NCBI GenBank assembly: GCA_022644565.1
Contig: JALCHG010000001.1
Location: forward strand, 132-64,131
Direction: 5' to 3'
Length of the DNA stretch: 64,000 bases
Origin: Solobacterium sp.
Lineage (GTDB): Bacteria > Bacillota_I > Bacilli_A > Erysipelotrichales > Erysipelotrichaceae
In this document: in pieces, positions 29,327-37,782 of the stretch
Layout: every line of letters starts with the position of its first letter
Position numbering within the stretch: the first letter of the stretch is position 1
Translations under genes and position numbers: made by a program
The notes under the pieces: generated by a model
What the model was told of the DNA's origin: nothing
Seen by the model: the letters and a program-made list of their open reading frames with translations, nothing else
Database searches by the model: none

Positions 29327-30964
29327 ATGAACAACACAATTTATGTCATCGGCCACAAACATCCAGACAGTGATTCCATCTGCTCGGCACTGACGTATGC
29401 CAATCTGCTGCGCCAGACGGGAAAGGAAGCCATTGCCTGCCGGCAGGGTCCGCTCAATGAAGAGACAAAATTCATTCTGAAGCGGTTCCACCAGGAAAAT
29501 CCTTTACTGCTGACCGATGCCCGTGCCGCTTTATCTGACATTGATCTGGATCAGCCGACCGTCATCCGTCATGATGAAACGGTGCATCATGCCTGGCATG
29601 TGATGCTGCATACGCAGAACCGCTCCCTGTTTGTCAATGATGATGATGGAAATCTGGTCGGGATCTGTACGACCAGTGATCTTTCCCGGGTCAGAATTCA
29701 TCCGACTGCTGATCTGCAACAGCTGATGTCCACCGCATCACTTTCCAACATTGCCCGTACCATCGGCGGTACGGTAGTCGTGGACAAAGAGAATTTCCAC
29801 TGCAACGGGCATGTGCATATCATCACGCTGGAAGGCAATGAAGTTGCCCAGAACTACAAGTTCAGAGATGATATTGTCATTCTTTCTTCCGGTGAAGCGA
29901 AGATGCAGATCATGATCGATATGCATGTGGCATGCATTGTCATTACCTGCGGCCAGAAGGCTTCGGATCAGATCCGTGAAAATGCCCGTCAGGCCGGCAT
30001 TGCCATCATTGAAACCCCGATGGAGACCATGCATACTGCCCGCATCATTACGGAAAGCTACAGTGTGGAACAGGTCATGACAAAGGATATAATTACCTTC
30101 CGCAATGATGAATATGTGGAAGATGTGGCGGCCAAGATGAATAAATCACGTGTGCGTTCCTATCCGGTGCTGGATAAGGCAGGACATGTGGTCGGGGCAG
30201 TATCGCGCTATCATACCCGCAACTACAATCACAAGAAGTTTGTGCTGGTGGACCACAGTGCCCCCAACCAGACCATCAACCATATTGAAAATGCCTATGT
30301 GACGGCGATCATCGACCACCATCATATCGGCGGGGTCACAACGGACCATCCGATCATGTACCGCAATATGCAGGTAGGCTGTACTTGTACGATCATCAAT
30401 CTGCTGTATGAGGAAGCCGGGATTGTACCGGACAAAGATATGGCGGGATTGATGATGAGTGCCATTCTCTCAGATACGCTCAATTTCAAATCCGCAACAA
30501 CAACGGATTTGGACCGTAATACGGTCAAAAAACTGGCAGAGATTGCCGGCATTGACGATGTCAATGCCTATGCAAGAGAGATGCTGGGCGCCAGTGTATC
30601 ATTAACTGATGCATCGCCGCATGAGATTCTCAACCGTGATCTTAAATCCTATCAGATCGGTAAATACAGATTTGCGATCGGCCAAACCAACTACTCCCGC
30701 ATGGAGGAAGTACAGAAGATCCTGCCTGCCTTCAAGGAAAACCTGCAGAAGGAACAGGCGGAAAACAAGCTGGATCTTCTGGTCATGCTGTTCACGGATG
30801 TCATGGGTGAAGGCAGTCTGTTTGTATATGATGGACCCCTGTCCTATGTGATCAGTGATCTGTTGGAAACAAAGTTTGATGAACATTCCGGCTTTGATTC
30901 CCGCATTATCTCCCGCAAGCAGCAGCTGATGCCGATGATTTCGGAAGCACTTGGAAATATCTAG
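29327..30964 (+). CDS. ppaC: Mn-dependent family II inorganic pyrophosphatase with CBS and DRTGG domains
   Basis: GHKHPDSDSI, CBS pair, LVDH, IIDHH, GCTCT, ILSDTL, DLKSY, SRKQQ. Confidence 0.9.
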   Translation: MNNTIYVIGHKHPDSDSICSALTYANLLRQTGKEAIACRQGPLNEETKFILKRFHQENPLLLTDARAALSDIDLDQPTVIRHDETVHHAWHVMLHTQNRSLFVNDDDGNLVGICTTSDLSRVRIHPTADLQQLMSTASLSNIARTIGGTVVVDKENFHCNGHVHIITLEGNEVAQNYKFRDDIVILSSGEAKMQIMIDMHVACIVITCGQKASDQIRENARQAGIAIIETPMETMHTARIITESYSVEQVMTKDIITFRNDEYVEDVAAKMNKSRVRSYPVLDKAGHVVGAVSRYHTRNYNHKKFVLVDHSAPNQTINHIENAYVTAIIDHHHIGGVTTDHPIMYRNMQVGCTCTIINLLYEEAGIVPDKDMAGLMMSAILSDTLNFKSATTTDLDRNTVKKLAEIAGIDDVNAYAREMLGASVSLTDASPHEILNRDLKSYQIGKYRFAIGQTNYSRMEEVQKILPAFKENLQKEQAENKLDLLVMLFTDVMGEGSLFVYDGPLSYVISDLLETKFDEHSGFDSRIISRKQQLMPMISEALGNI

Positions 30965-30974
30965 TTCATTATGG

Positions 30975-31010
30975 ATACAGCCCCTGGGACAATTACCCCA
31001 GGGGCTGTAT
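30975..31010. terminator. Bidirectional terminator hairpin between ppaC and kptA
   Basis: ATACAGCCCCTGGG...CCCAGGGGCTGTAT, a 14-bp stem between convergent genes. Confidence 0.75.
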
Positions 31011-31018
31011 GTGTTTGT

Positions 31019-31579
31019 TCAGAAAGTGATCTGCTTCAGATATGCGGGCGGAACCGATGCACTCAGCCAGATATGATTGGCAGAAAGATAGAAGGCATAG
31101 CCATCCTGTGCCATCTGATCCGCATAGATCAGAAAAACAATGGGACGGCCATGGCGGGCACCGACTTTTTCAGCCTGCTGGACAGTAGTAGAAAGATGGA
31201 CATAGAGCCTCGACATCGGTTCCAGACCTTCCTGCAGAATAGATGAAACTGACTTTTCACCTGTACCATGGTACAGCACAGCCGGAGGCGTACATCTTTT
31301 AAGATCCACATCCACCGGAATGGAATGGCCCTGGTTTGCCCGGATCTTTGTATGATCTTCATTATAGCTGTAGCGCTGTTTTTCATCATTTCTTACGATA
31401 CGGTCAAGATCTTTCTGATTGAAGTCTCTGTCTTTTTTCTGTAAGGCAGAGATGAGTTCTTCTACTGCACACCAGCCATGATGGTCCAGGATGATGGGAC
31501 CGGCTTCCGGGTGGTGGCGTAAAAGAAAGCTCATGTATTTTGAGATACGGACATCGTGTGAATTGCGGTTGTTTTCCAT
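31019..31579 (-). CDS. kptA: RNA 2'-phosphotransferase (KptA/Tpt1)
   Basis: SKYMSFLLRH, DEKQRY, IRANQGHS, LYHGT, RLYVHLS, RHG. Confidence 0.95.
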   Translation of the reverse strand: MENNRNSHDVRISKYMSFLLRHHPEAGPIILDHHGWCAVEELISALQKKDRDFNQKDLDRIVRNDEKQRYSYNEDHTKIRANQGHSIPVDVDLKRCTPPAVLYHGTGEKSVSSILQEGLEPMSRLYVHLSTTVQQAEKVGARHGRPIVFLIYADQMAQDGYAFYLSANHIWLSASVPPAYLKQITF

Positions 31580-31632
31580 AAGGCTATTATAGTCAGATCC
31601 TGTATAATAGAGAGACGGAAAGGAAGCTGCTT

Positions 31633-32544
31633 ATGCTCAATATATGTTTACTTGGAACAGGAGGAACCGTACCGCTGCCGGAAAGATGGCTGACCAGCTG
31701 TCTTTTACGGTTCAATGGACATGCGTTTCTGATTGACTGCGGTGAAGGAACCCAGATTGCTCTGCATAAGCAGAGGGTCTCTGTCAAGCATATCGATGCC
31801 ATCTTTCTGACCCATTACCATGCGGACCATACGGCCGGACTGCCCGGCATTCTTTTAACCATGGCCAAGGCCGGCAGAACAGAGCCGATTCTGATTGCCG
31901 GACCGAAAGACCTGCATGATGTCATGCGGGGTGTCATGTCCATCGCCCGCTATGTGCCGTTTGAAATCCGTTTATGTGAATACCATGAACGGGAAGTCGA
32001 GATGGATTTCGGGGATGTGATCATGACAGCTTTTGCGGTCAGACACAGTGTACCGTGCTATTCCTATGTGCTGGACCTGAAGCGCAATGCCCGGTTTGAT
32101 CGACAGAAGGCAGAAAAGAACCAGGTGCCTTTGAAGGCGTGGAGCAGGCTGCAGAAGGGGGAAACCGTAGAGATGGACGGAATTACCTATACCCCTGATC
32201 AGGTCATGGGAGAGGAAAGAAAAGGATTGAAGGTTGTGTACAGCACTGACACAAGACCTGTGGAACAGATCACAAGACATGCGGCAGGGGCGGATCTTTA
32301 TATCGGAGAAGGCATGTATGGAGATCCGGAAAAAGCGGATAAAGCCAAGCTGAACCTGCATTCCACCATGTATGAAACCGCCGCCATCGCGGCTAAGGCA
32401 GATGTCAGAGAACTGTGGCTGACCCATTATTCTCCAAGCATGGAAACACCTTCTGAATATACCGAGCAGGTGCAGGCTTTCTTCCGCAATACGGTTATCG
32501 CAAAGGACGGCCAGCAGAAAGAACTGGTGTTTGAAGATGAATAA
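31633..32544 (+). CDS. rnz: Ribonuclease Z
   Basis: LGTGG, DCGEG, THYHADH, STDT, HST, THYSP. Confidence 0.92.
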   Translation: MLNICLLGTGGTVPLPERWLTSCLLRFNGHAFLIDCGEGTQIALHKQRVSVKHIDAIFLTHYHADHTAGLPGILLTMAKAGRTEPILIAGPKDLHDVMRGVMSIARYVPFEIRLCEYHEREVEMDFGDVIMTAFAVRHSVPCYSYVLDLKRNARFDRQKAEKNQVPLKAWSRLQKGETVEMDGITYTPDQVMGEERKGLKVVYSTDTRPVEQITRHAAGADLYIGEGMYGDPEKADKAKLNLHSTMYETAAIAAKADVRELWLTHYSPSMETPSEYTEQVQAFFRNTVIAKDGQQKELVFEDE

Positions 32545-32556
32545 AGAGGCAGAACG

Positions 32557-32934
32557 ATGTCCTTTTATCTGTTTACGTGCGTGACATTATTGCTCATACC
32601 GGCTGTCATGATACTGTTCGGCTGCCGCTTCAAAGACGGCGGACCGAAGAAAATCAATCGTTTCTATGGCTATCGCAGCGTCATGTCGATGAAAAACCGG
32701 GATACGTGGGATTATGCCCACCGGTACATTGGAAAGGTCTGGGTCAGAAATGGGTTGATTGCTCTTTTTCTGACGCTTGCCGTTCTGGTTTTCATGAAAA
32801 ACAGCAGTGATGATGCGATCGGGACCGCAGGGCTGGTTCTTCTGTGTGTACAGATGGCGTTTCTGATGGTTCCGATTTCGCTGACGGAAAAAGCACTGAA
32901 GGAAAATTTTGATACATCCGGAAAAAGAAAATAA
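32557..32934 (+). CDS. SdpI-family membrane protein
   Basis: KINRFYGYRSVMSMKNRDTWDYAHRYIG with flanking TM helices. Confidence 0.85.
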   Translation: MSFYLFTCVTLLLIPAVMILFGCRFKDGGPKKINRFYGYRSVMSMKNRDTWDYAHRYIGKVWVRNGLIALFLTLAVLVFMKNSSDDAIGTAGLVLLCVQMAFLMVPISLTEKALKENFDTSGKRK

Positions 32935-32957
32935 AAGGTCAGCTGAATCAGCTGACC
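32926..32957 (-). terminator. Intrinsic terminator on the minus strand just beyond the displaced tRNA 3'-end copy
   Basis: Minus strand GGTCAGCTG-ATT-CAGCTGACC-TTTTATTT. Confidence 0.65.
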
Positions 32958-33047
32958 GACAGGTGTGCCGGATGGTACAGCGGCATATGTTGAACCAAGT
33001 GGATATTGGTGATAACGCTGTTATTTCAGCAATTGAAAAGCAGAAGG

Positions 33048-33251
33048 TTATTTGCCTTCCGCTTTTTTGATGGTTTCTTCCATCGCTGACCTGATCACTT
33101 CAGATTGTGAGACACCAAGCTTTTTACATGCGGCCTTGAACTCATCTACAAGTTCAGCTTTATATCTTCCGCTTATGGGCTTCGTGTTTTCTTTTATCCA
33201 CTGGTTCTGATACTTGATCTGGTCAAAGTCACTTGATGCTTTCCTAGACAT
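33048..33251 (-). CDS. Small ribbon-helix-helix-type DNA-binding protein
   Basis: 67 aa, GAGG RBS; 'KPISGRYKAELVDEFKAACKKLGVSQSEVIRSAMEETI' fits a strand-helix-helix pattern. Confidence 0.75.
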   Translation of the reverse strand: MSRKASSDFDQIKYQNQWIKENTKPISGRYKAELVDEFKAACKKLGVSQSEVIRSAMEETIKKAEGK

Positions 33252-33252
33252 A

Positions 33253-33336
33253 TTATTTCCTCTTCAAGGTGATTAGAACGTAGATTGAAATTGCTAAAGC
33301 AATGGATGAAATGATGATTGAGATAATATCTGTCAT
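33253..33336 (-). CDS. 27-aa single-TM peptide with basic tail (MTDIISIIISSIALAISIYVLITLKRK)
   Basis: Manual translation. Ends 1 nt before the RHH start. No clear RBS. Confidence 0.5.
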   Translation of the reverse strand: MTDIISIIISSIALAISIYVLITLKRK

Positions 33337-33358
33337 AGCGTTTGGTAAATGCTATAAT
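33330..33358 (+). promoter_or_regulatory. SigA-type promoter firing antisense to the peptide gene at 33422-33493
   Basis: CTGTCA (33330-33335) - 17 nt - TG-N-TATAAT (33353-33358). Confidence 0.65.
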
Positions 33359-33364
33359 TAAAGT

Positions 33365-33487
33365 ACAGGAAGGAGTGCCTGCTCCCTCGAGTACGGCCTT
33401 GCTATTTCTTTCTACTTTCTTTTAGATAACGGCTGTTATCAACTGAATGATGGTTGTAGAAAGCTCTAGCAGGCTTTTTATTATTGA
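33365..33487 (+). ncRNA. Candidate antisense (antitoxin-like) RNA
   Basis: Would be transcribed from the 33330-33358 promoter across the peptide ORF; contains a GATAAC-GGCT-GTTATC hairpin. The 3' end is uncertain (weak hairpin 33458-33479). Confidence 0.4.
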
Positions 33488-33493
33488 TCGCAT
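33402..33493 (-). pseudogene. Type I toxin-like hydrophobic peptide, apparently frameshifted
   Basis: AAGGAGGT RBS. MRSIIKSLLELSTTIIQLITAVI* (stop 33422-33424). One added nt after ATC gives ...AVILKESRKK* ending at TAG 33402-33404. Confidence 0.5.
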
Positions 33494-33589
33494 TTACCTT
33501 ACCTCCTTTTCTTACACCAATAATATAGCATATTATATGTAATATATAAATGCTGCTATAAAATATTTCTTAAAAACGCCTAAAATAAT

Positions 33590-33618
33590 AAAAACCATCG
33601 ATATATTCGATGGTTTTC
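33590..33618 (-). terminator. Terminator immediately downstream of tRNA-Arg
   Basis: AAAACCATCG-ATATATT-CGATGGTTTT inverted repeat with T-runs. Confidence 0.75.
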
Positions 33619-33631
33619 AATAAAATGAAGG

Positions 33632-33705
33632 TGTGCCCGATGGGGCTCGAACCCACAACCTTTTGCTTCGGAGGCAAATACGCTATCCAGTTGCGCTACG
33701 GGCAC
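33632..33705 (-). tRNA. tRNA-Arg(CCG)
   Basis: Minus strand GTGCCCGTAGCGCAACTGGATAGCGTATTTGCCTCCGAAGCAAAAGGTTGTGGGTTCGAGCCCCATCGGGCACA; acceptor stem GTGCCCG/CGGGCAC, anticodon arm TTTGC-CTCCGAA-GCAAA, GTTCGAG T-loop. CCA is not fully encoded (ACCT). Confidence 0.95.
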
Positions 33706-33745
33706 ATGCATGTATTATAATAACACAGTTCTGAGGAGAAAAGAA

Positions 33746-34558
33746 ATGAGTGAAGATATCAGTGCAATCAGATTGATCGTCTGCGACATTGACAATACGC
33801 TGCTGCCGTCGGGCCGGGATGATTTGTCCGATTATACATATGCAGCCCTGTTCAGGGCACTGCAGAAGGGATATAAGCTGCTGATCTGTACGGGCAGACA
33901 TTATACCCTCATGCCCAAAGGGATGATGGCAAAGCTGCCGATGGAGCGGATCGGTACGATCAACGGCGCTTGCCTGTGTGATCACGACGGGCATACGATT
34001 GAGAAACATCCGATGAAGGAAGAAGATATGAATACCATTACCAGGATCTGTATTGAAAATGATATCGGTCTTGGCTTCAAGTTTGAGGATGCCATTGTCA
34101 CCTATGCCAATTATGAACGCTTTGTGGCCAATTATGCCAAGAAGCCGGGGGAAGCGGAGCTGATTGTCAATGATGACGCAAAGCGTACGCATCATCTGAA
34201 ATATGGTCTTCCTTTAGGTACGTTCATTGTCGGGGATGAAAGCAAGATCGAACCGTTTGTCGGTACGATGGACAATTTGATCTTTGCCTGGTCCCACCGC
34301 AGCGGGTATGATGTATTCCTGAAGGATATCAACAAGAGTACGGCGGTGGAAAGAGTGCTGAAGGACGAAGGATTGACATGGGACAATGTCATTGCCTTCG
34401 GCGATGCCGGCAATGATACGCCGATGATTGATAAGGCAAGGATCGGGGTCGCGCTTGGCAATGCCAAGGATAATGTGCAGGCACATGCGGATATTGTAGC
34501 GGATACGTGTGCCAATGACGGTGCTGCAAGGGTGCTGGAAGAGCTTGGAATTGCCTGA
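33746..34558 (+). CDS. Cof-type HAD-IIB hydrolase
   Basis: VCDIDNTLL, CTGR, INGA, KSTAV, AFGDAGNDTPMI. Confidence 0.92.
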   Translation: MSEDISAIRLIVCDIDNTLLPSGRDDLSDYTYAALFRALQKGYKLLICTGRHYTLMPKGMMAKLPMERIGTINGACLCDHDGHTIEKHPMKEEDMNTITRICIENDIGLGFKFEDAIVTYANYERFVANYAKKPGEAELIVNDDAKRTHHLKYGLPLGTFIVGDESKIEPFVGTMDNLIFAWSHRSGYDVFLKDINKSTAVERVLKDEGLTWDNVIAFGDAGNDTPMIDKARIGVALGNAKDNVQAHADIVADTCANDGAARVLEELGIA

Positions 34559-34645
34559 GCAGGTCCATAACACACAATCCATACAAAGATACTTGACAAT
34601 AGGTAAAATAAGCGTAAAGTAGTGGACAAGGAAAGGGGAACAGCC

Positions 34646-34711
34646 ATGAAGATGTACAGTGCAGTCTGTTGTATGTTTGAACATAAAACTGAATTTCTGC
34701 ATACGTACTGA
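34646..34711 (+). CDS. Leader peptide MKMYSAVCCMFEHKTEFLHTY with tandem Cys codons
   Basis: Purine-rich RBS AAGGAAAGGGG 7 nt before the ATG; TGT TGT at 34667-34672; lies between promoter TTGACA (34593) and terminator 34753-34786. Confidence 0.6.
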   Translation: MKMYSAVCCMFEHKTEFLHTY

Positions 34712-34752
34712 GCAGGCTCCTTTTTCGACACGTGGAATACATGAAGTGAATG

Positions 34753-34786
34753 GCAGATGTGCAGGCGTACATCTGTTTTTTGTTTT
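34753..34786 (+). terminator. Leader (attenuator) terminator upstream of the ABC operon
   Basis: GCAGATGTGC-AGGC-GTACATCTGT followed by TTTTTGTTTT, ending ~14 nt before the permease start. Confidence 0.75.
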
Positions 34787-34799
34787 ATAAAGGAGGCTT

Positions 34800-35459
34800 A
34801 TGAACTGGACGATTATGCAGTCATACTGGCCGCTGTTTCTGGCGGCTGCCGGGGTAACCCTGCGGATTTCCTTCTTCGGCATTCTGCTGGCGGTGATCCT
34901 CGGCATGGTCATCAGTCTGATCCAGTATGCAAAGATACCGGTATTAAGACAGATCGCATCTGTCTATATTGAATTGAGCCGCAATACACCGCTGCTGGTG
35001 CAGCTGTTCTTCATCTACTTCGGTCTGCCAAAGCTTGGCGTGGTATTGAGCGGGGAAGCAAGTGCGATTGCCGGGGTTGTGTTTCTGGGCGGCAGCTACT
35101 TTGCGGAGAACTTCAGATCAGGTCTTGAAGCAGTGGCTGTAAGCCAGAAGGAATCAGCGCTGTCGCTTGGCATGAGCGGTGCCCAGGCGATGCGCTATGT
35201 CATCCTGCCCCAGGCATTAAGAGTGGCTCTGCCGGGCTTCTTTGCCAATGTGATCTTTCTGATCAAGGAAACTTCGGTTGTTTCGGCCATTGCCGTACCG
35301 GATCTGATGTATGTGGCAAAGGATCTGATGGGCAATGACTACCGTACGGCGGAAGCGCTGGGGATGCTTGTTATCTTCTATCTGATCATCATCCTGCCGG
35401 TGACGATACTGGCCTATGTTCTGGAAAGGAGGCTGCGGTATGGGAAAGTCAGGCATTGA
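34800..35459 (+). CDS. Polar amino-acid ABC permease
   Basis: YIELSRNTPLLVQLFFIYFGLP, EAA loop, VILPQALR, LIKETS. Confidence 0.93.
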   Translation: MNWTIMQSYWPLFLAAAGVTLRISFFGILLAVILGMVISLIQYAKIPVLRQIASVYIELSRNTPLLVQLFFIYFGLPKLGVVLSGEASAIAGVVFLGGSYFAENFRSGLEAVAVSQKESALSLGMSGAQAMRYVILPQALRVALPGFFANVIFLIKETSVVSAIAVPDLMYVAKDLMGNDYRTAEALGMLVIFYLIIILPVTILAYVLERRLRYGKVRH

Positions 35460-36114
35460 ACTTTTAGCCAACTACAAGTACTGGATCCGGCTTCTGGAAG
35501 GATTATGGGTGACGATCCGGATTGCGTTGATCTCAACCGGATTATCCATGGTGCTGGGAACGCTGCTTGGTATGGTCATGACGATCAAGAACAGGATCAT
35601 CACGGTCATCACACAGATCTATCTCGGCTTTGTCAGAATCATGCCGCAGCTTGTTCTGCTGTTCATTGTCTTCTATGGCTTTTCAAGATGGACAGGCCTG
35701 ATGATGGATGCGGAGACAAGTGCAATTGTGGTGTTTACATTCTGGGGTACAGCGGAAACGGCGGACCTTGTCAGAGGTGCTCTGGAGTCCATCCCGGCTC
35801 ACCAGTATGAATCTGCCTATGCTCTTGGCATGAATCAGAAACAGACGTTCCGGTATGTGATTCTGCCCCAGACCATGAGACGGCTTTTACCGCCTCTTAT
35901 CAATCTGATTACCCGTATGATCAAGACGACTTCGCTTGTGGAGATCATCGGCCTTGTTGAAGTGCTTAAGACCGGCCAGCAGATTATTGATGCCAACCGG
36001 ATGAAATACGCAGATGGTGCTTTCTGGATCTATGCAGCGGTATTTGTGCTGTACTTCCTGATCTGCTGGCCGATCAGCAGCTATGCAAAGCATCTGGAAA
36101 AGAAGTGGAGGTGA
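35440..36114 (+). CDS. Polar amino-acid ABC permease
   Basis: [32 protein letters not shown]; ATG 35440 after GGAGG. Confidence 0.92.
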
Positions 36115-36121
36115 AAGGAAG

Positions 36122-36895
36122 ATGGAAAACAGAATACAGCTTTCCGTAAAGGATCTGGTGAAATCATATGATGGCAGGAATGAAGTGCTCAACGGCATCA
36201 GCTTTGATGTTCATCAGGGTGAAGTCGTTGTCATTCTGGGACCGTCAGGCTGCGGCAAGTCTACGCTGCTCAGATGCCTGAATGGACTGGAAACATATCA
36301 GTCCGGTTCCATTACCCTGGATGGACAGCCCATCACCCATGGCGGAAAAAACATGAATGCCATGCGCCAGAGAATCGGGATGGTCTTTCAGAGCTATGAT
36401 CTTTTCCCGCATTATACCGTGCTGGACAATATCACGCTGGCCCCTGTCAAAGTAGTCCATCGGCCTAAGAAAGAGACAGAAGCCGAAGCACGGGCACTGT
36501 TGAAAAGAGTCGGACTTGAAGATAAGGCAGATGCCTATCCCAATGAACTGTCCGGCGGACAGAAACAGAGAGTGGCGATCTGCCGGGCGCTGATCATGAA
36601 GCCGGAAGTGATGCTGTTTGATGAAGTGACGGCAGCACTTGATCCGGAGATGGTTCATGAAGTGCTGAATGTCATGATGGAGCTGGCTGACCAGGGCATG
36701 ACCATGGTCATTGTCACCCATGAGATGAAGTTTGCGGAAGCGATCGGGGATAGAGTATTGTTCCTGGATGACGGCAAGATCGTTGAAGAAAATACACCGG
36801 AAGGCTTCTTCCATCACCCTAAGACAGAGCGGGCGGATGCCTTTCTGCATACATTTACCTATACAAGAAAAAGAGCTGAGAAAAGCGCTCAGTAA
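36122..36895 (+). CDS. Polar amino-acid ABC ATPase
   Basis: [38 protein letters not shown]. Confidence 0.95.
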
Positions 36896-36912
36896 ATAAG
36901 GAGGATAAGAAT

Positions 36913-37782
36913 ATGTCACGTACAAAGCTGATCAAAGGTTTACTCGCAGGATTTTTAACCGTAGGACTGGCCGGCTGCGGCAGTACGGCAGCCAGCAAAT
37001 CCGCTTCTTCCACTTCTTCAAGTGATACAGGAACGGTATTCCGTACGGTGGATGAAATCAAGAAAGACGGTACGCTAAGAGTTGCCGTATTCAGTGATAA
37101 GGCGCCGTTCGGCTATGTGGATGAGAATGGTGATTACCAGGGCTATGATGTGTATTATGCCAAGCGCATTGCCAAGGATCTCGGGGTAGATGTTGAATTT
37201 ACGCCGGTATCACCGAGCGCCCGTATTGATATTGTCAATTCCGGCCAGGTGGATATTACGCTTGCCAACTTTACCGTCACGGATGAAAGAGCCAAGCAGG
37301 TTGATTTCACAGCACCTTATATGAAAGTTGCTTTAGGTGTCGTTTCCCCTGACAGTGCTGTGATTACGGATGTCAATGATCTCAAGGAGCTGATTGTTGC
37401 CAAGGGCACAACGGCTGAAACCTACTTTGAAGAAAACTATCCGGATGTCAAGCTCATCAAGTATGATGAATATGCGGATGCCTACAATGCTTTACTGGAT
37501 GGCAGAGGACCTGCCTTCTCCACAGATAACACGGAAGTACTGGCATGGGCCAAGTCCAATCCGGGCTATACGGTAGGTATTACCCAGCTTGGTGACTATG
37601 ATGCCATTGCTCCGGCTGTTGCCAAAGGCAATAAGACATTGGCTGATTTCCTGAATGATGAAATCCAGACGCTCGGTGATGAGCAGTTCTTCCACAAGGA
37701 TTATGAGGAAACGCTGCGTCCGGTCTATGGCGATGCGGCTGATCCGGATGAGATTGTGGTTGAATACGGCAAGATTGACTGA
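36913..37782 (+). CDS. Amino-acid ABC substrate-binding lipoprotein, CjaA-like (probable cysteine)
   Basis: Lipobox LAGC; VAVFSDKAPFGYVDENGDYQGYDVYYAKRIAKDL, LANFTVTDERAKQVDF, STDNTEVLAWAK and LGDEQFFHKDYEETL resemble the CjaA cysteine-binding family. Confidence 0.82.
   Translation: MSRTKLIKGLLAGFLTVGLAGCGSTAASKSASSTSSSDTGTVFRTVDEIKKDGTLRVAVFSDKAPFGYVDENGDYQGYDVYYAKRIAKDLGVDVEFTPVSPSARIDIVNSGQVDITLANFTVTDERAKQVDFTAPYMKVALGVVSPDSAVITDVNDLKELIVAKGTTAETYFEENYPDVKLIKYDEYADAYNALLDGRGPAFSTDNTEVLAWAKSNPGYTVGITQLGDYDAIAPAVAKGNKTLADFLNDEIQTLGDEQFFHKDYEETLRPVYGDAADPDEIVVEYGKID

What the first reader, a model, noticed from the sequence alone, without database searches (positions are those of the whole stretch)
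33253..33545. Candidate type I toxin-antitoxin-like cassette: two TM micro-peptides plus convergent antisense RNA
Seen on the minus strand: promoter (TTTATA-17-TG-N-TATATT, ~33524-33552), a strong RBS, a 23-aa hydrophobic ORF, a hairpin, a 27-aa TM ORF ending KRK, then the RHH gene. A near-consensus plus-strand promoter (33330-33358) points into the first peptide gene. Known: type I toxins are short TM peptides with basic C-termini silenced by cis-antisense RNA. Inference: a hybrid module in which antisense RNA and an RHH repressor both control membrane peptides. Neither peptide appears in the ORF track, and I cannot assign a named family.
Basis: partly seen in the sequence, partly recalled or inferred. 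Interest (0 to 1): 0.68.

Follow-up and report, generated by a model that had tools for sequence, protein, structure and literature searches.

The report
Prophage-derived toxin-antitoxin-like cassette remnant
The flagged stretch is a real 668-base leftover of a phage that once integrated into a tRNA gene; it keeps only a conserved, undescribed small module (two membrane micro-peptides, an antisense promoter, a small DNA-binding repressor) that most likely works like a type I toxin-antitoxin system, with the probable toxin gene cut short in this genome.

Summary
Comparison with about 120 related loci shows they are parts of one conserved cassette. Its order is: promoter P1 with a palindromic operator, a strong RBS, peptide 1, a hairpin at the peptide-1 stop, a convergent antisense extended -10, peptide 2, then an overlapping ribbon-helix-helix (RHH) gene.

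Both peptides are under purifying selection (pN/pS 0.16 and 0.30). An antisense -10 is present in 12 of 20 diverged cassettes, against 1.7 expected and 0 on the sense strand. The cassette lives in Erysipelotrichaceae prophages, beside lysis genes, beside HNH/portal genes, or at prophage edges next to tRNAs.

In the window it is a 668-bp, low-GC insertion at the 3' end of tRNA-Arg(CCG). A 15-bp direct repeat flanks it, and sister lineages carry the empty site. Peptide 1 is truncated here to 23 aa by a premature stop and lacks the end of its helix and its basic tail.

The best reading is a prophage type I toxin-antitoxin-like module with an added RHH autorepressor. The nearest known analogue is yonT-yoyJ/SR6 of Bacillus subtilis SPbeta. 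No sequence family matches. The antisense RNA and peptide toxicity remain unproven. Verdict: a new variant of a known kind, of moderate interest.

The parts
32937..32957 (.). GC-rich hairpin GGTCAGCTGAATCAGCTGACC. It is the terminator shared by the convergent SdpI-family gene (+) and the cassette operon (-). It belongs to the host backbone and is present in the empty site.
32961..32975 (.). attR-like partial copy of the tRNA-Arg 3' end (AGGTGTGCCgGATGG, 14 of 15 identical to 33629-33643). It marks the left boundary of the insertion.
   Evidence: the empty-site junction is also seen in rumen metagenome contigs
32976..33628 (.). 653-bp unique inserted DNA, 35.7% GC against about 49% in the flanks. 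It contains only the cassette and its upstream terminator.
33048..33251 (-). 67-aa ribbon-helix-helix protein, the predicted autorepressor. It has a conserved N-terminal extension (F9, Y14, W18, K20, N22) followed by the RHH core.
   Evidence: Pfam RHH_1 20.8 bits against a cut-off of 20.5; PHROG Arc-like repressor E 7e-6; alignment of 29 of the 64 homologues found; Foldseek top hits are ParG, VapB, CopG, NikR and Arc
33253..33336 (-). Peptide 2, 27 aa, with one predicted TM helix. It has no SD of its own. Its stop lies 1 nt before the RHH ATG, and its last codons are the RHH SD.
   Evidence: an ORF is conserved at this position in about 30 distinct sequence variants, pN/pS 0.30
33330..33358 (+). 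Antisense promoter Pas: CTGTCA, 17-nt spacer, TGcTATAAT. The predicted start is near 33365, at the base of the hairpin.
   Evidence: conserved in 12 of 20 cassettes on the antisense strand only, binomial p 8e-9
33365..33620 (+). Predicted antisense RNA of about 250 nt. It would cover the hairpin, all of peptide 1 and P1, and end at the bidirectional terminator. This is inferred, not observed.
   Evidence: terminator at +249; two metatranscriptome contigs end at 33363 and 33368
33363..33394 (-). Stem-loop between peptide 1 and peptide 2. The stem pairs an SD-like GAGGGAG with an anti-SD-like CUCCUUC.
   Evidence: 18 of 18 relatives have a hairpin here, z -1.6 to -6.5
33422..33493 (-). Peptide 1, 23 aa. 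It is a truncated copy of a 30-47 aa family (IKxLLE motif, one helix, K/R tail) and is the probable toxin gene, disabled here.
   Evidence: pN/pS 0.16 in relatives
33502..33507 (-). AGGAGG Shine-Dalgarno of peptide 1, within the conserved 5' UTR motif TGTAAGAAAAGGAGG.
33522..33550 (-). Promoter P1 (TTTATA, 17-nt spacer, TGcTATATT). The inverted repeat TATATT-ACATAT-AATATG (33546-33529) in its spacer is the candidate RHH operator. The left half-site and the -35 carry one change relative to the phage relatives (CATATT / TTTACA).
33589..33619 (.). 13-bp-stem hairpin at the tRNA-proximal end of the insertion. It is a terminator for the tRNA on the minus strand and probably for the antisense RNA on the plus strand.
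33630..33705 (-). tRNA-Arg(CCG), the integration target. Its 3' end (33629-33643) is the other copy of the 15-bp repeat.

Best explanation
The finding is the last surviving piece of a temperate phage or integrative element that inserted at the 3' end of tRNA-Arg(CCG). What survives is a self-contained cassette common in Erysipelotrichaceae prophages.

Proposed mechanism in intact cassettes:
1. A strong promoter P1 makes one mRNA encoding peptide 1, peptide 2 and an RHH protein. Peptide 1 is a 30-47 aa single-helix peptide with a K/R tail. Peptide 2 is a 22-58 aa TM peptide.
2. The RHH binds a palindrome in the P1 spacer and represses the operon (inferred).
3. A convergent promoter between peptide 1 and peptide 2 makes an antisense RNA. 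It begins at the hairpin after the peptide-1 stop and runs back across peptide 1 (inferred).
4. Pairing of this RNA with the mRNA blocks or destroys the peptide-1 part and spares the peptide 2-RHH part (inferred).

Peptide 1 is therefore the type I toxin, the antisense RNA the antitoxin, and the RHH an added transcriptional brake. Such a module would stabilise the prophage or act when transcription is perturbed.

In this window the module is decayed. Peptide 1 is truncated by a premature stop and the P1 -35/operator carries one weakening change. Peptide 2, the RHH gene and the antisense promoter are intact.
For: SHOWN

Conserved architecture:
- About 25 distinct cassettes from 7 genome, 73 metagenome and 37 viral loci share the layout.
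- Peptide 1 has pN/pS 0.16 and peptide 2 has 0.30, against 0.17 for the RHH.
- A hairpin sits at the peptide-1 stop in 18 of 18 cassettes with unrelated sequences, z -1.6 to -6.5.
- A strict antisense -10 lies between the peptide-1 stop and the peptide-2 ATG in 12 of 20 cassettes. There are none on the sense strand and 1.67 are expected, p 8e-9.
- Antisense-strand terminators give RNAs of 130-310 nt. In L017 and L035 the terminator is embedded in the peptide-1 coding region.
- The P1 spacer palindrome co-varies with the RHH beta-strand. All six cassettes with KQVKASY share a central GTAC despite very different peptides.

Phage context:
- Flanking genes are endolysin, holin, portal, HNH and serine integrase.
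- 18 of 37 IMG/VR hits lie less than 1.5 kb from a contig end.
- A tRNA lies directly upstream in L058, L114 and L051 as well.

Insertion in the window:
- The empty site is present in sister lineages. The window has a 15-bp direct repeat, a 668-bp insert and 35.7% GC.
- Both alleles occur in rumen metagenomes.

Decay pattern and transcription:
- Peptide 1 is truncated in the window, has lost its promoter and SD in L002, and is deleted cleanly in L069-75, where P1 and the 5' UTR are fused to peptide 2. The RHH stays intact in all of these.
- The peptide 2-RHH region is transcribed in rumen metatranscriptomes. Two contigs end at 33363 and 33368, next to the predicted antisense start at 33365.

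KNOWN
- Gram-positive type I systems place the antisense RNA on the 3' side of the toxin mRNA (PMC8594479).
- yonT-yoyJ/SR6 of prophage SPbeta has two toxin ORFs on one polycistronic mRNA and one antisense RNA between them that triggers RNase III decay (PMC5848175).
- Prophage type I systems stabilise mobile elements in C. difficile (PMC7699646).
Against: - No strand-resolved RNA data were available, so the antisense transcript is inferred from a promoter, not seen. The metatranscriptome contigs are unstranded and at depth 3-5. Other RNA runs were uninformative.
- There is no evidence that either peptide is toxic.
- No sequence or profile match exists to any known type I toxin or antitoxin RNA family. 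PADLOC defence models also give no hit.
- Long-range SD/anti-SD pairing is only weakly better than composition predicts, mean z -0.85.
- Several cassettes have only a 4/6 antisense -10 (L001, L008, L081).
- The existence of peptide 2-RHH-only variants (L069-75) shows the core can live without peptide 1 and the antisense promoter. Peptide 2 and the RHH therefore have some function of their own that this model does not explain.
- Some 'disrupted' peptide-1 copies come from low-coverage assemblies (for example L022, 1.3x) and may be sequencing errors.
Confidence: 0.6

Rival explanations
1. The cassette is a prophage 'moron' whose two small membrane proteins serve the phage directly, for example in superinfection exclusion, lysis timing or membrane remodelling. 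They are not an addiction pair. The RHH and convergent transcription merely tune their expression during lysogeny.
For: - The cassette lies next to holin and endolysin genes or at prophage ends, where lysogenic-conversion genes sit.
- Peptide 2-RHH-only variants exist without any antisense promoter.
- There is no homology to known toxins.
Against: - Solitary cassettes persist after the prophage is gone (the window; L058), which fits addiction better than a phage-cycle function.
- Peptide 1 is lost selectively while the RHH is kept.
- The promoter-plus-terminator antisense unit embedded in the peptide-1 coding sequence is typical of type I systems.
Confidence: 0.25
2. Peptide 2 and the RHH form the functional pair, with a membrane peptide toxin or effector and a protein partner in a type II-like arrangement or with membrane-tethered regulation. 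Peptide 1 plus the antisense RNA would be an optional upstream regulatory add-on.
For: - Peptide 2 and the RHH are always translationally coupled, with the stop next to or overlapping the start.
- L069-75 retain exactly this pair under P1.
- The RHH has a conserved aromatic N-terminal helix (F9, Y14, W18) of unknown role.
Against: - The RHH has no C-terminal toxin-binding extension.
- The gene order (toxin first, RHH last) is atypical for RHH antitoxins.
- Peptide 2 is the least conserved part (pN/pS 0.30; lengths 22-58 aa) and often lacks an SD.
Confidence: 0.1
3. The two short ORFs are only regulatory leader peptides (uORFs) or chance ORFs in the 5' leader of an RHH gene, and the antisense promoter is a chance match.
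For: - Within the single window the count of promoter-like sites equals the shuffle expectation.
- The window's peptide 1 is very short and peptide 2 lacks an SD.
Against: - Purifying selection acts on both peptide sequences.
- Hydrophobic single-helix character is retained across non-alignable variants.
- Peptide-1 homologues are called as genes on hundreds of contigs.
- The antisense -10 is enriched at p 8e-9 and is strand-specific.
Confidence: 0.04

Closest known systems
yonT-yoyJ / SR6 type I toxin-antitoxin system of Bacillus subtilis prophage SPbeta (PMC5848175)
   Same: - It is prophage-borne.
- Two small toxin ORFs lie on one polycistronic mRNA.
- A single cis-antisense RNA is transcribed convergently from between them and overlaps the 3' end of the first ORF.
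- The antisense RNA destroys the first cistron's mRNA through RNase III without destabilising the second.
   Different: - There is no sequence similarity between the peptides.
- SR6 also overlaps the 5' end of yoyJ, whereas here the antisense RNA starts upstream of peptide 2.
- No RHH or other regulator gene is part of the yonT operon.
- The toxins are shorter here (30-47 aa against 58 aa).
bsrG/SR4, bsrE/SR5 and txpA/RatA (Bacillus prophage or prophage-like type I systems); Gram-positive type I organisation as summarised in T1TAdb (PMC8594479)
   Same: - A small hydrophobic toxin with a charged tail.
- An antisense RNA on the 3' side.
- SD-rich and anti-SD-rich hairpins in the toxin mRNA.
- Location on mobile elements.
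   Different: - No Pfam, NCBIfam or Rfam match.
- Extra genes (peptide 2, RHH) lie in the same transcript.
Clostridioides difficile prophage type I systems such as CD0977.1-RCd11 (PMC7699646)
   Same: Gut Firmicute prophages carry small-toxin/antisense modules that stabilise the element.
   Different: - The toxins there are about 50 aa and unrelated in sequence.
- There is no co-transcribed repressor.
Phage P22 immI region (arc-ant with sar antisense RNA; Arc and Mnt are RHH repressors). Recalled from general knowledge, not tested here.
   Same: A phage accessory operon autoregulated by a small RHH repressor and additionally checked by a short convergent antisense RNA that starts inside the operon.
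   Different: - In P22 the RHH gene comes first and the regulated product is a soluble antirepressor, not a membrane peptide.
- The proteins are not homologous beyond the RHH fold.
omega-epsilon-zeta three-component toxin-antitoxin systems. Recalled from general knowledge, not tested here.
   Same: An RHH protein serves purely as transcriptional autorepressor of a toxin-antitoxin operon, separate from the antitoxin.
   Different: - The antitoxin there is a protein and the toxin is a kinase.
- The gene order has the RHH first.

Membership tests
Type I toxin-antitoxin system (generic kind) | Small (<60 aa) hydrophobic or TM toxin ORF with its own strong translation signals | tested here: inconclusive
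   Met in relatives: peptide 1 is 30-47 aa with an AGGAGG SD and pN/pS 0.16. In the window peptide 1 is truncated to 23 aa with a hydrophobic run of about 13 residues. Peptide 2 is a 27-aa TM ORF but has no SD.
Type I toxin-antitoxin system (generic kind) | Cis-encoded antisense RNA overlapping the toxin mRNA | tested here: inconclusive
   The promoter is conserved in position and strand (12 of 20 against 1.67 expected), and terminators lie on the antisense strand. No stranded transcript data were available.
Type I toxin-antitoxin system (generic kind) | The peptide is toxic when expressed, and the antisense RNA neutralises it | not testable with these tools
   Only indirect evidence exists: selective loss or truncation of peptide 1 with retention of the RHH.
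Type I toxin-antitoxin system (generic kind) | Toxin mRNA structure that sequesters the SD (anti-SD element) | tested here: inconclusive
   Hairpin stems are built from GGAG/CUCC-type arms in all cassettes. Duplex energy with the 5' UTR is only weakly better than in shuffles, mean z -0.85.
Known type I toxin families (Fst/Ldr, TxpA/BsrG, YonT, Hol_Tox PF16935 and others) and Rfam antitoxin RNAs | Profile match of the peptide or the RNA | tested here: not met
   The window peptides and ten relatives have no hit above threshold in Pfam or NCBIfam. The best is Hol_Tox for L001 peptide 2, 17 bits against a cut-off of 23.3. The Rfam scan at E<=1 of 30000-37000 finds only the tRNA and two sub-threshold chance matches.
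Ribbon-helix-helix (CopG/Arc/MetJ) DNA-binding superfamily | RHH domain signature | tested here: met
   - Pfam RHH_1 scores 20.8 bits against a gathering score of 20.5, so the match is marginal.
- PHROG Arc-like repressor E 6.9e-6.
- PF10723 RepB-RCR_reg is precomputed for homologues.
- PDB profile search finds ParG at E 0.021.
- Foldseek top hits are all RHH proteins but with E>=3.
Ribbon-helix-helix (CopG/Arc/MetJ) DNA-binding superfamily | Binds a repeated or palindromic operator overlapping its own promoter | tested here: inconclusive
   An 18-bp palindrome lies in the P1 spacer in nearly all cassettes and co-varies with the beta-strand sequence. Binding itself was not tested.
Type II toxin-antitoxin system with RHH antitoxin | RHH antitoxin with a toxin-binding C-terminal extension, encoded with a protein toxin of known fold | tested here: not met
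   The RHH ends 3-8 residues after helix B and is the last gene. In the window a terminator and a convergent host gene follow it.
tRNA-integrated mobile-element remnant | Direct repeat of the tRNA 3' end flanking foreign DNA, and an empty site in relatives | tested here: met
   - The 15-bp repeat at 32961-32975 and 33629-33643 is 14 of 15 identical.
- The 653-bp insert is 35.7% GC.
- Orthologous loci L124-L129 lack it.
- Both alleles are present in metagenomes.
- No integrase remains.

The most novel reading that the evidence does not exclude
The cassette is a previously undescribed hybrid addiction module. A single tricistronic mRNA encodes a type I membrane toxin, a second membrane peptide and an RHH autorepressor. 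A convergent antisense RNA starts at a conserved SD/anti-SD hairpin and selectively removes the toxin cistron while sparing the peptide 2-RHH part. Control is therefore both transcriptional (protein) and post-transcriptional (RNA). The 668-bp att-flanked remnant in this window would then be a natural example of such a module outliving its prophage, after which the toxin was disarmed.
Probability: 0.4. Interest if true: 0.7.

Novelty: new variant of a known kind. Interest (0 to 1): 0.55.

Why it matters
No type I toxin-antitoxin system was found described for Erysipelotrichaceae in the paper search. This family includes common gut and rumen bacteria such as Thomasclavelia, Stecheria and Holdemanella-like lineages. 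The cassette is widespread in their prophages and is annotated at best as 'hypothetical protein'.

If the model holds, it adds a new toxin family. It also adds an unusual design in which a dedicated RHH repressor is built into a type I locus, linking the logic of type I and three-component type II systems.

The window copy has a clean empty site, att repeats and a disabled toxin. That gives a concrete case of how such modules persist and decay after prophage loss. In practice the conserved signature (P1 palindrome, peptide, hairpin, antisense TGnTATAAT, peptide, RHH) can be used to annotate these loci and to mark prophage ends.

Tried and rejected
**Family and collection searches that found nothing useful**
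- Pfam, NCBIfam, PHROGs and PADLOC searches of the peptides gave no family.
- The Rfam scan found only the tRNA.
- tblastn of the RHH against INPHARED phages and PLSDB plasmids gave no match.
- Exact-pattern scans of IMG/VR for the window's P1 and for the insert's att-distal arm gave none, so the parent phage was not found.

**RNA evidence**
- All available RNA runs are unstranded Logan contigs.
- The window runs show transcription of peptide 2-RHH only.
- Runs for L018 and L060 were uninformative or possibly DNA-contaminated.

**Ideas tested and dropped or weakened**
- An 11-mer exact search for a tRNA repeat missed the att copy because of its one mismatch. It was found later through the empty site.
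- I first read the peptide-1 truncation as a frameshift, because the +1 frame reads S-K-R-K-stop. The in-frame alignment favours a nonsense change at a conserved Leu codon. Either way the gene is truncated.
- The hairpin is not a sense-strand intrinsic terminator, because no U-tract follows it in any locus. In most loci it is not an antisense terminator either.
- The SD/anti-SD long-range pairing hypothesis has only weak support.
- No repeats of the tRNA 3' end were found within the held flanks of L058, L114 and L051.
- The AlphaFold monomer models the RHH beta-strand as a helix. This is expected for an obligate dimer, so the model is of limited value.
Full report
**1. Observation**

On the minus strand the window reads as follows:
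- tRNA-Arg(CCG) at 33705-33630.
- A 13-bp-stem terminator at 33619-33589.
- Promoter P1: TTTATA, 17-nt spacer, TGcTATATT (33550-33522).
- AGGAGG at 33507-33502.
- A 23-aa ORF at 33493-33422.
- A stem-loop at 33394-33363.
- A 27-aa ORF at 33336-33253.
- A 67-aa gene at 33251-33048, whose Shine-Dalgarno lies in the last codons of the 27-aa ORF.
- A terminator at 32957-32937, shared with a convergent SdpI-family gene.

On the plus strand, CTGTCA, 17-nt spacer, TGcTATAAT sits at 33330-33358. It points into the hairpin and the 23-aa ORF.

In this single sequence the number of promoter-like sites is what shuffles give (4 against 3.5). The case for function has to come from comparison.

**2. The 67-aa protein is a ribbon-helix-helix protein of a narrow family**

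- Pfam RHH_1 is just above its gathering score (20.8 against 20.5 bits).
- PHROGs gives Arc-like or CopG-like repressors.
- A PDB profile search finds ParG at E 0.021.
- The best Foldseek matches of an AlphaFold model (pLDDT 79) are ParG, VapB, CopG, NikR and Arc, although none is significant for so short a domain.
- Sixty-four homologues exist. Those with names come from Erysipelotrichaceae: Stecheria, Lactimicrobium, Anaerolactibacter and Galactobacillus, plus Bulleidia.
- All share a conserved N-terminal extension (F9, Y14, W18, K20, N22) ahead of the RHH core.

**3. The cassette is conserved**

I used the RHH as an anchor and fetched 7 genome loci, 73 metagenome loci, 37 IMG/VR viral contigs and 6 contigs encoding the closest homologues. 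About 25 distinct cassettes show the same layout, although the RHH identity to the window falls as low as 32%.

The shared layout is:
- P1: TTTACA or TTGACA, 17-nt spacer, TGnTATAAT.
- A conserved short 5' UTR (TTGTAARGAAAGGAGG).
- Peptide 1: 30-47 aa, often with an [IL]K[DS][LF]LE motif, one hydrophobic helix and a K/R-rich tail. One subgroup has the K-rich segment at the N terminus.
- A hairpin at or just after the peptide-1 stop.
- A sense-strand 'ATTATA'.
- Peptide 2: 22-58 aa, one or two TM segments.
- The RHH start next to or overlapping the peptide-2 stop.

Evidence that each part is real:
- Both peptides are real genes. Over close pairs, pN/pS is 0.16 for peptide 1 and 0.30 for peptide 2, against 0.17 for the RHH.
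- Peptide-1 homologues are present in protein databases only as 'hypothetical protein' (Thomasclavelia ramosa, a Caudoviricetes MAG). One of them occurs on 269 contigs.
- The hairpin is found in 18 of 18 representatives with unrelated sequences, z -1.6 to -6.5.
- In many cassettes the stop codon lies in the hairpin loop and the 5' arm is made of the K/R/E/G codons. In all of them the stem pairs an SD-like purine run with a CUCC-type run.

**4. The antisense promoter is conserved**

The sense 'ATTATA' is TATAAT on the other strand, usually preceded by TGn.

- Under a strict criterion (perfect TATAAT, or TGn plus 5/6), 12 of 20 representative cassettes have it on the antisense strand between the peptide-1 stop and the peptide-2 ATG.
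- None has it on the sense strand, and 1.67 are expected from shuffles, binomial p 8e-9.
- Most of the rest have weaker TGn-type variants.
- Loci that have lost peptide 1 have weak or no antisense promoter.
- Downstream on the antisense strand there are intrinsic terminators that would give RNAs of 130-310 nt. In L017 and L035 the terminator is embedded in the 5' coding part of peptide 1. In the window it is the bidirectional hairpin beside the tRNA, at +249.

The predicted RNA begins at the foot of the hairpin, covers peptide 1 and does not reach peptide 2.

**5. A candidate operator**

The P1 spacer carries an 18-bp palindrome of the form CATAnT-N6-AnTATG. Its centre tracks the RHH beta-strand:
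- All six cassettes with beta-strand KQVKASY have a central GTAC, although their peptides differ widely.
- KKLSCS(Y/F) cassettes have TATACGTACGTATA or TATACGTCCGTATA.
- LSVSSRY cassettes have GCACGC or GCGTGC.
- KPISGRY cassettes (the window and its phage relatives) have CATATT-ACATAT-AATATG.

This co-variation is the evidence that the RHH represses its own operon. It is an inference, because binding was not tested. In the window the left half-site and the -35 carry one change (TTTATA/TATATT against TTTACA/CATATT).

**6. Context: prophages**

- The closest RHH relatives that lie on longer contigs (about 88% identical) sit between an ArpU-like regulator and HNH plus portal genes. There the RHH is followed by a 228-aa zinc-ribbon protein, phrog_1305.
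- Other cassettes are convergent with holin and endolysin genes at a prophage end, or lie beside a serine integrase.
- Eighteen of the 37 IMG/VR hits lie within 1.5 kb of a contig end.
- A tRNA gene lies directly upstream in L058, L114 and L051 as well.
- There was no hit in cultured-phage or plasmid collections.

**7. What the window copy is**

- Sister lineages (SdpI 84-86% and 67% identical) have the same gene order: DHH, RNase Z-like, SdpI, tRNA-Arg, HAD hydrolase, ABC permeases. In them the tRNA 3' end abuts the SdpI terminator.
- The window has 668 extra bases exactly there. They are bounded by AGGTGTGCCgGATGG (32961-32975) and AGGTGTGCCcGATGG (33629-33643, the real tRNA 3' end).
- The 653-bp unique part is 35.7% GC against about 49% around it.
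- Rumen metagenomes contain both the occupied junction and the empty junction.
- The insert holds nothing but the cassette. It is therefore an att-flanked remnant of a tRNA-integrating element reduced to this module.
- Peptide 1 stops after ...TAVI. The TAA aligns in frame with a conserved Leu codon of L001 and L008, and the following KKVERNS aligns with LKSSKKS. The product lacks the end of the helix and the basic tail.
- This allele is invariant in the four DNA runs laid on the region. Eleven further runs hold every sampled 31-mer of the region.
- Peptide 1 is also lost in other lineages while the RHH remains. In L002 it lacks a promoter and SD. In L069-75, P1 and the 5' UTR are fused directly to peptide 2.

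**8. RNA evidence**

Three rumen metatranscriptomes contain contigs identical to 33063-33368, 33092-33363 and 33179-33429. Peptide 2 and the RHH are therefore transcribed in vivo. Two contig ends fall within 3 nt of the predicted antisense start (33365). That is what cleavage of a sense/antisense duplex would leave. However, the contigs are unstranded and at low depth, so this is only suggestive. Other RNA runs gave nothing usable.

**9. Mechanism proposed**

Steps marked inferred have no direct evidence.
1. P1 drives one mRNA for peptide 1, peptide 2 and the RHH. The layout is shown; the single transcript is inferred, with one contig spanning the hairpin.
2. The RHH represses P1 through the spacer palindrome (inferred from co-variation).
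3. Pas produces an antisense RNA over peptide 1 (inferred from the conserved promoter and terminators).
4. The duplex is degraded or translation is blocked, so peptide 1 is not made while peptide 2-RHH persists (inferred by analogy with SR6/yonT and SR4/bsrG).
5. Peptide 1 is a membrane toxin. This is inferred from its shape, the selective decay pattern and the survival of solitary cassettes.

The role of peptide 2 is open. Its basic C-terminus is largely dictated by the RHH Shine-Dalgarno, and it can exist with the RHH alone.

**10. Comparison with known systems**

The nearest functional analogue is yonT-yoyJ/SR6 of SPbeta. It has two toxin ORFs on a prophage polycistronic mRNA and one convergent antisense RNA between them that promotes RNase III decay of the first (PMC5848175).

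The 3'-side antisense position is the rule for Gram-positive type I families, and SD sequestration is typical (PMC8594479). Prophage type I systems that stabilise their element are known in C. difficile (PMC7699646).

The cassette is not a member of any known toxin or antitoxin-RNA family. All profile tests failed. It also differs in carrying a dedicated RHH regulator and a coupled second peptide. The paper search found no publication pairing 'type I toxin' with Erysipelotrichaceae.

**11. Verdict**

- Novelty: a new variant of a known kind.
- Confidence is about 0.9 in the structural and evolutionary account and about 0.55-0.6 in type I toxin-antitoxin function.
- Interest: 0.55.

Noticed in passing
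window 31019-31579 (-): This is a Tpt1/KptA RNA 2'-phosphotransferase gene (Pfam PF01885, E 2e-47). It sits between the DHH-family gene and the RNase Z-like gene. Sister lineages have only a 64-aa ORF at that position (L124 1790-1984), so this is a second indel that distinguishes the window's lineage.
   Followed up: partly
window 31633-32544 (+): Homologues of this metallo-beta-lactamase-fold RNase Z-like protein carry precomputed hits to PF23023 (Anti-Pycsar_Apyc1) alongside the Lactamase_B families. It is probably ordinary RNase Z, but the Apyc1 resemblance was not examined.
   Followed up: no
L081 2290-2480 (also L082, L084): A cluster of G-run repeats (GGGGGGTATATTAAAC, CAGGGGGGCATTCGAC, GGCGGGGGGCATTCAGATC, CCCGGGGGGGATATAAAA) lies between the HNH gene and the cassette in the closest phage relatives. 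It may be a cos or packaging-related site.
   Followed up: no
L001 about 2620-2650; also L003, L008, L010, L011, L039, L049, upstream of P1: A tandem direct repeat AATTTGGACAATTTGGAC (variants GGACAAATTGGAC and GGACAAAACGGAC) is conserved about 60-80 nt upstream of P1 in several otherwise diverged cassettes. Its function is unknown. It could be a binding site for another phage regulator.
   Followed up: no
L081 3198-3884; L009 2701-3387: In the HNH/portal-type phages a 228-aa zinc-ribbon protein overlaps the RHH stop and extends the operon. It matches phrog_1305 'DNA binding protein' and has no Pfam or PADLOC hit. It is absent from the window.
   Followed up: partly
L035 1057-2054; L040 2727-3655: A SocA/Panacea-domain gene (PF13274) with a small partner gene lies immediately next to the cassette in two prophages. 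The cassette therefore sits in a toxin-antitoxin or defence-rich accessory region.
   Followed up: partly
window 33051-33140 and 33398-33422, as matched by sheep-gut run X13, contig 2: A second, diverged relative of the cassette (11 differences in 90 nt of the RHH gene, different flanks, depth 46x) co-occurs with the window's organism in one metagenome.
   Followed up: no
window 32557-32934 (+): The convergent neighbour is an SdpI/YfhL-family membrane protein (PF13630, E 9e-20). It belongs to the host backbone and is present at the empty site, so its adjacency to the membrane-peptide cassette is coincidental.
   Followed up: yes
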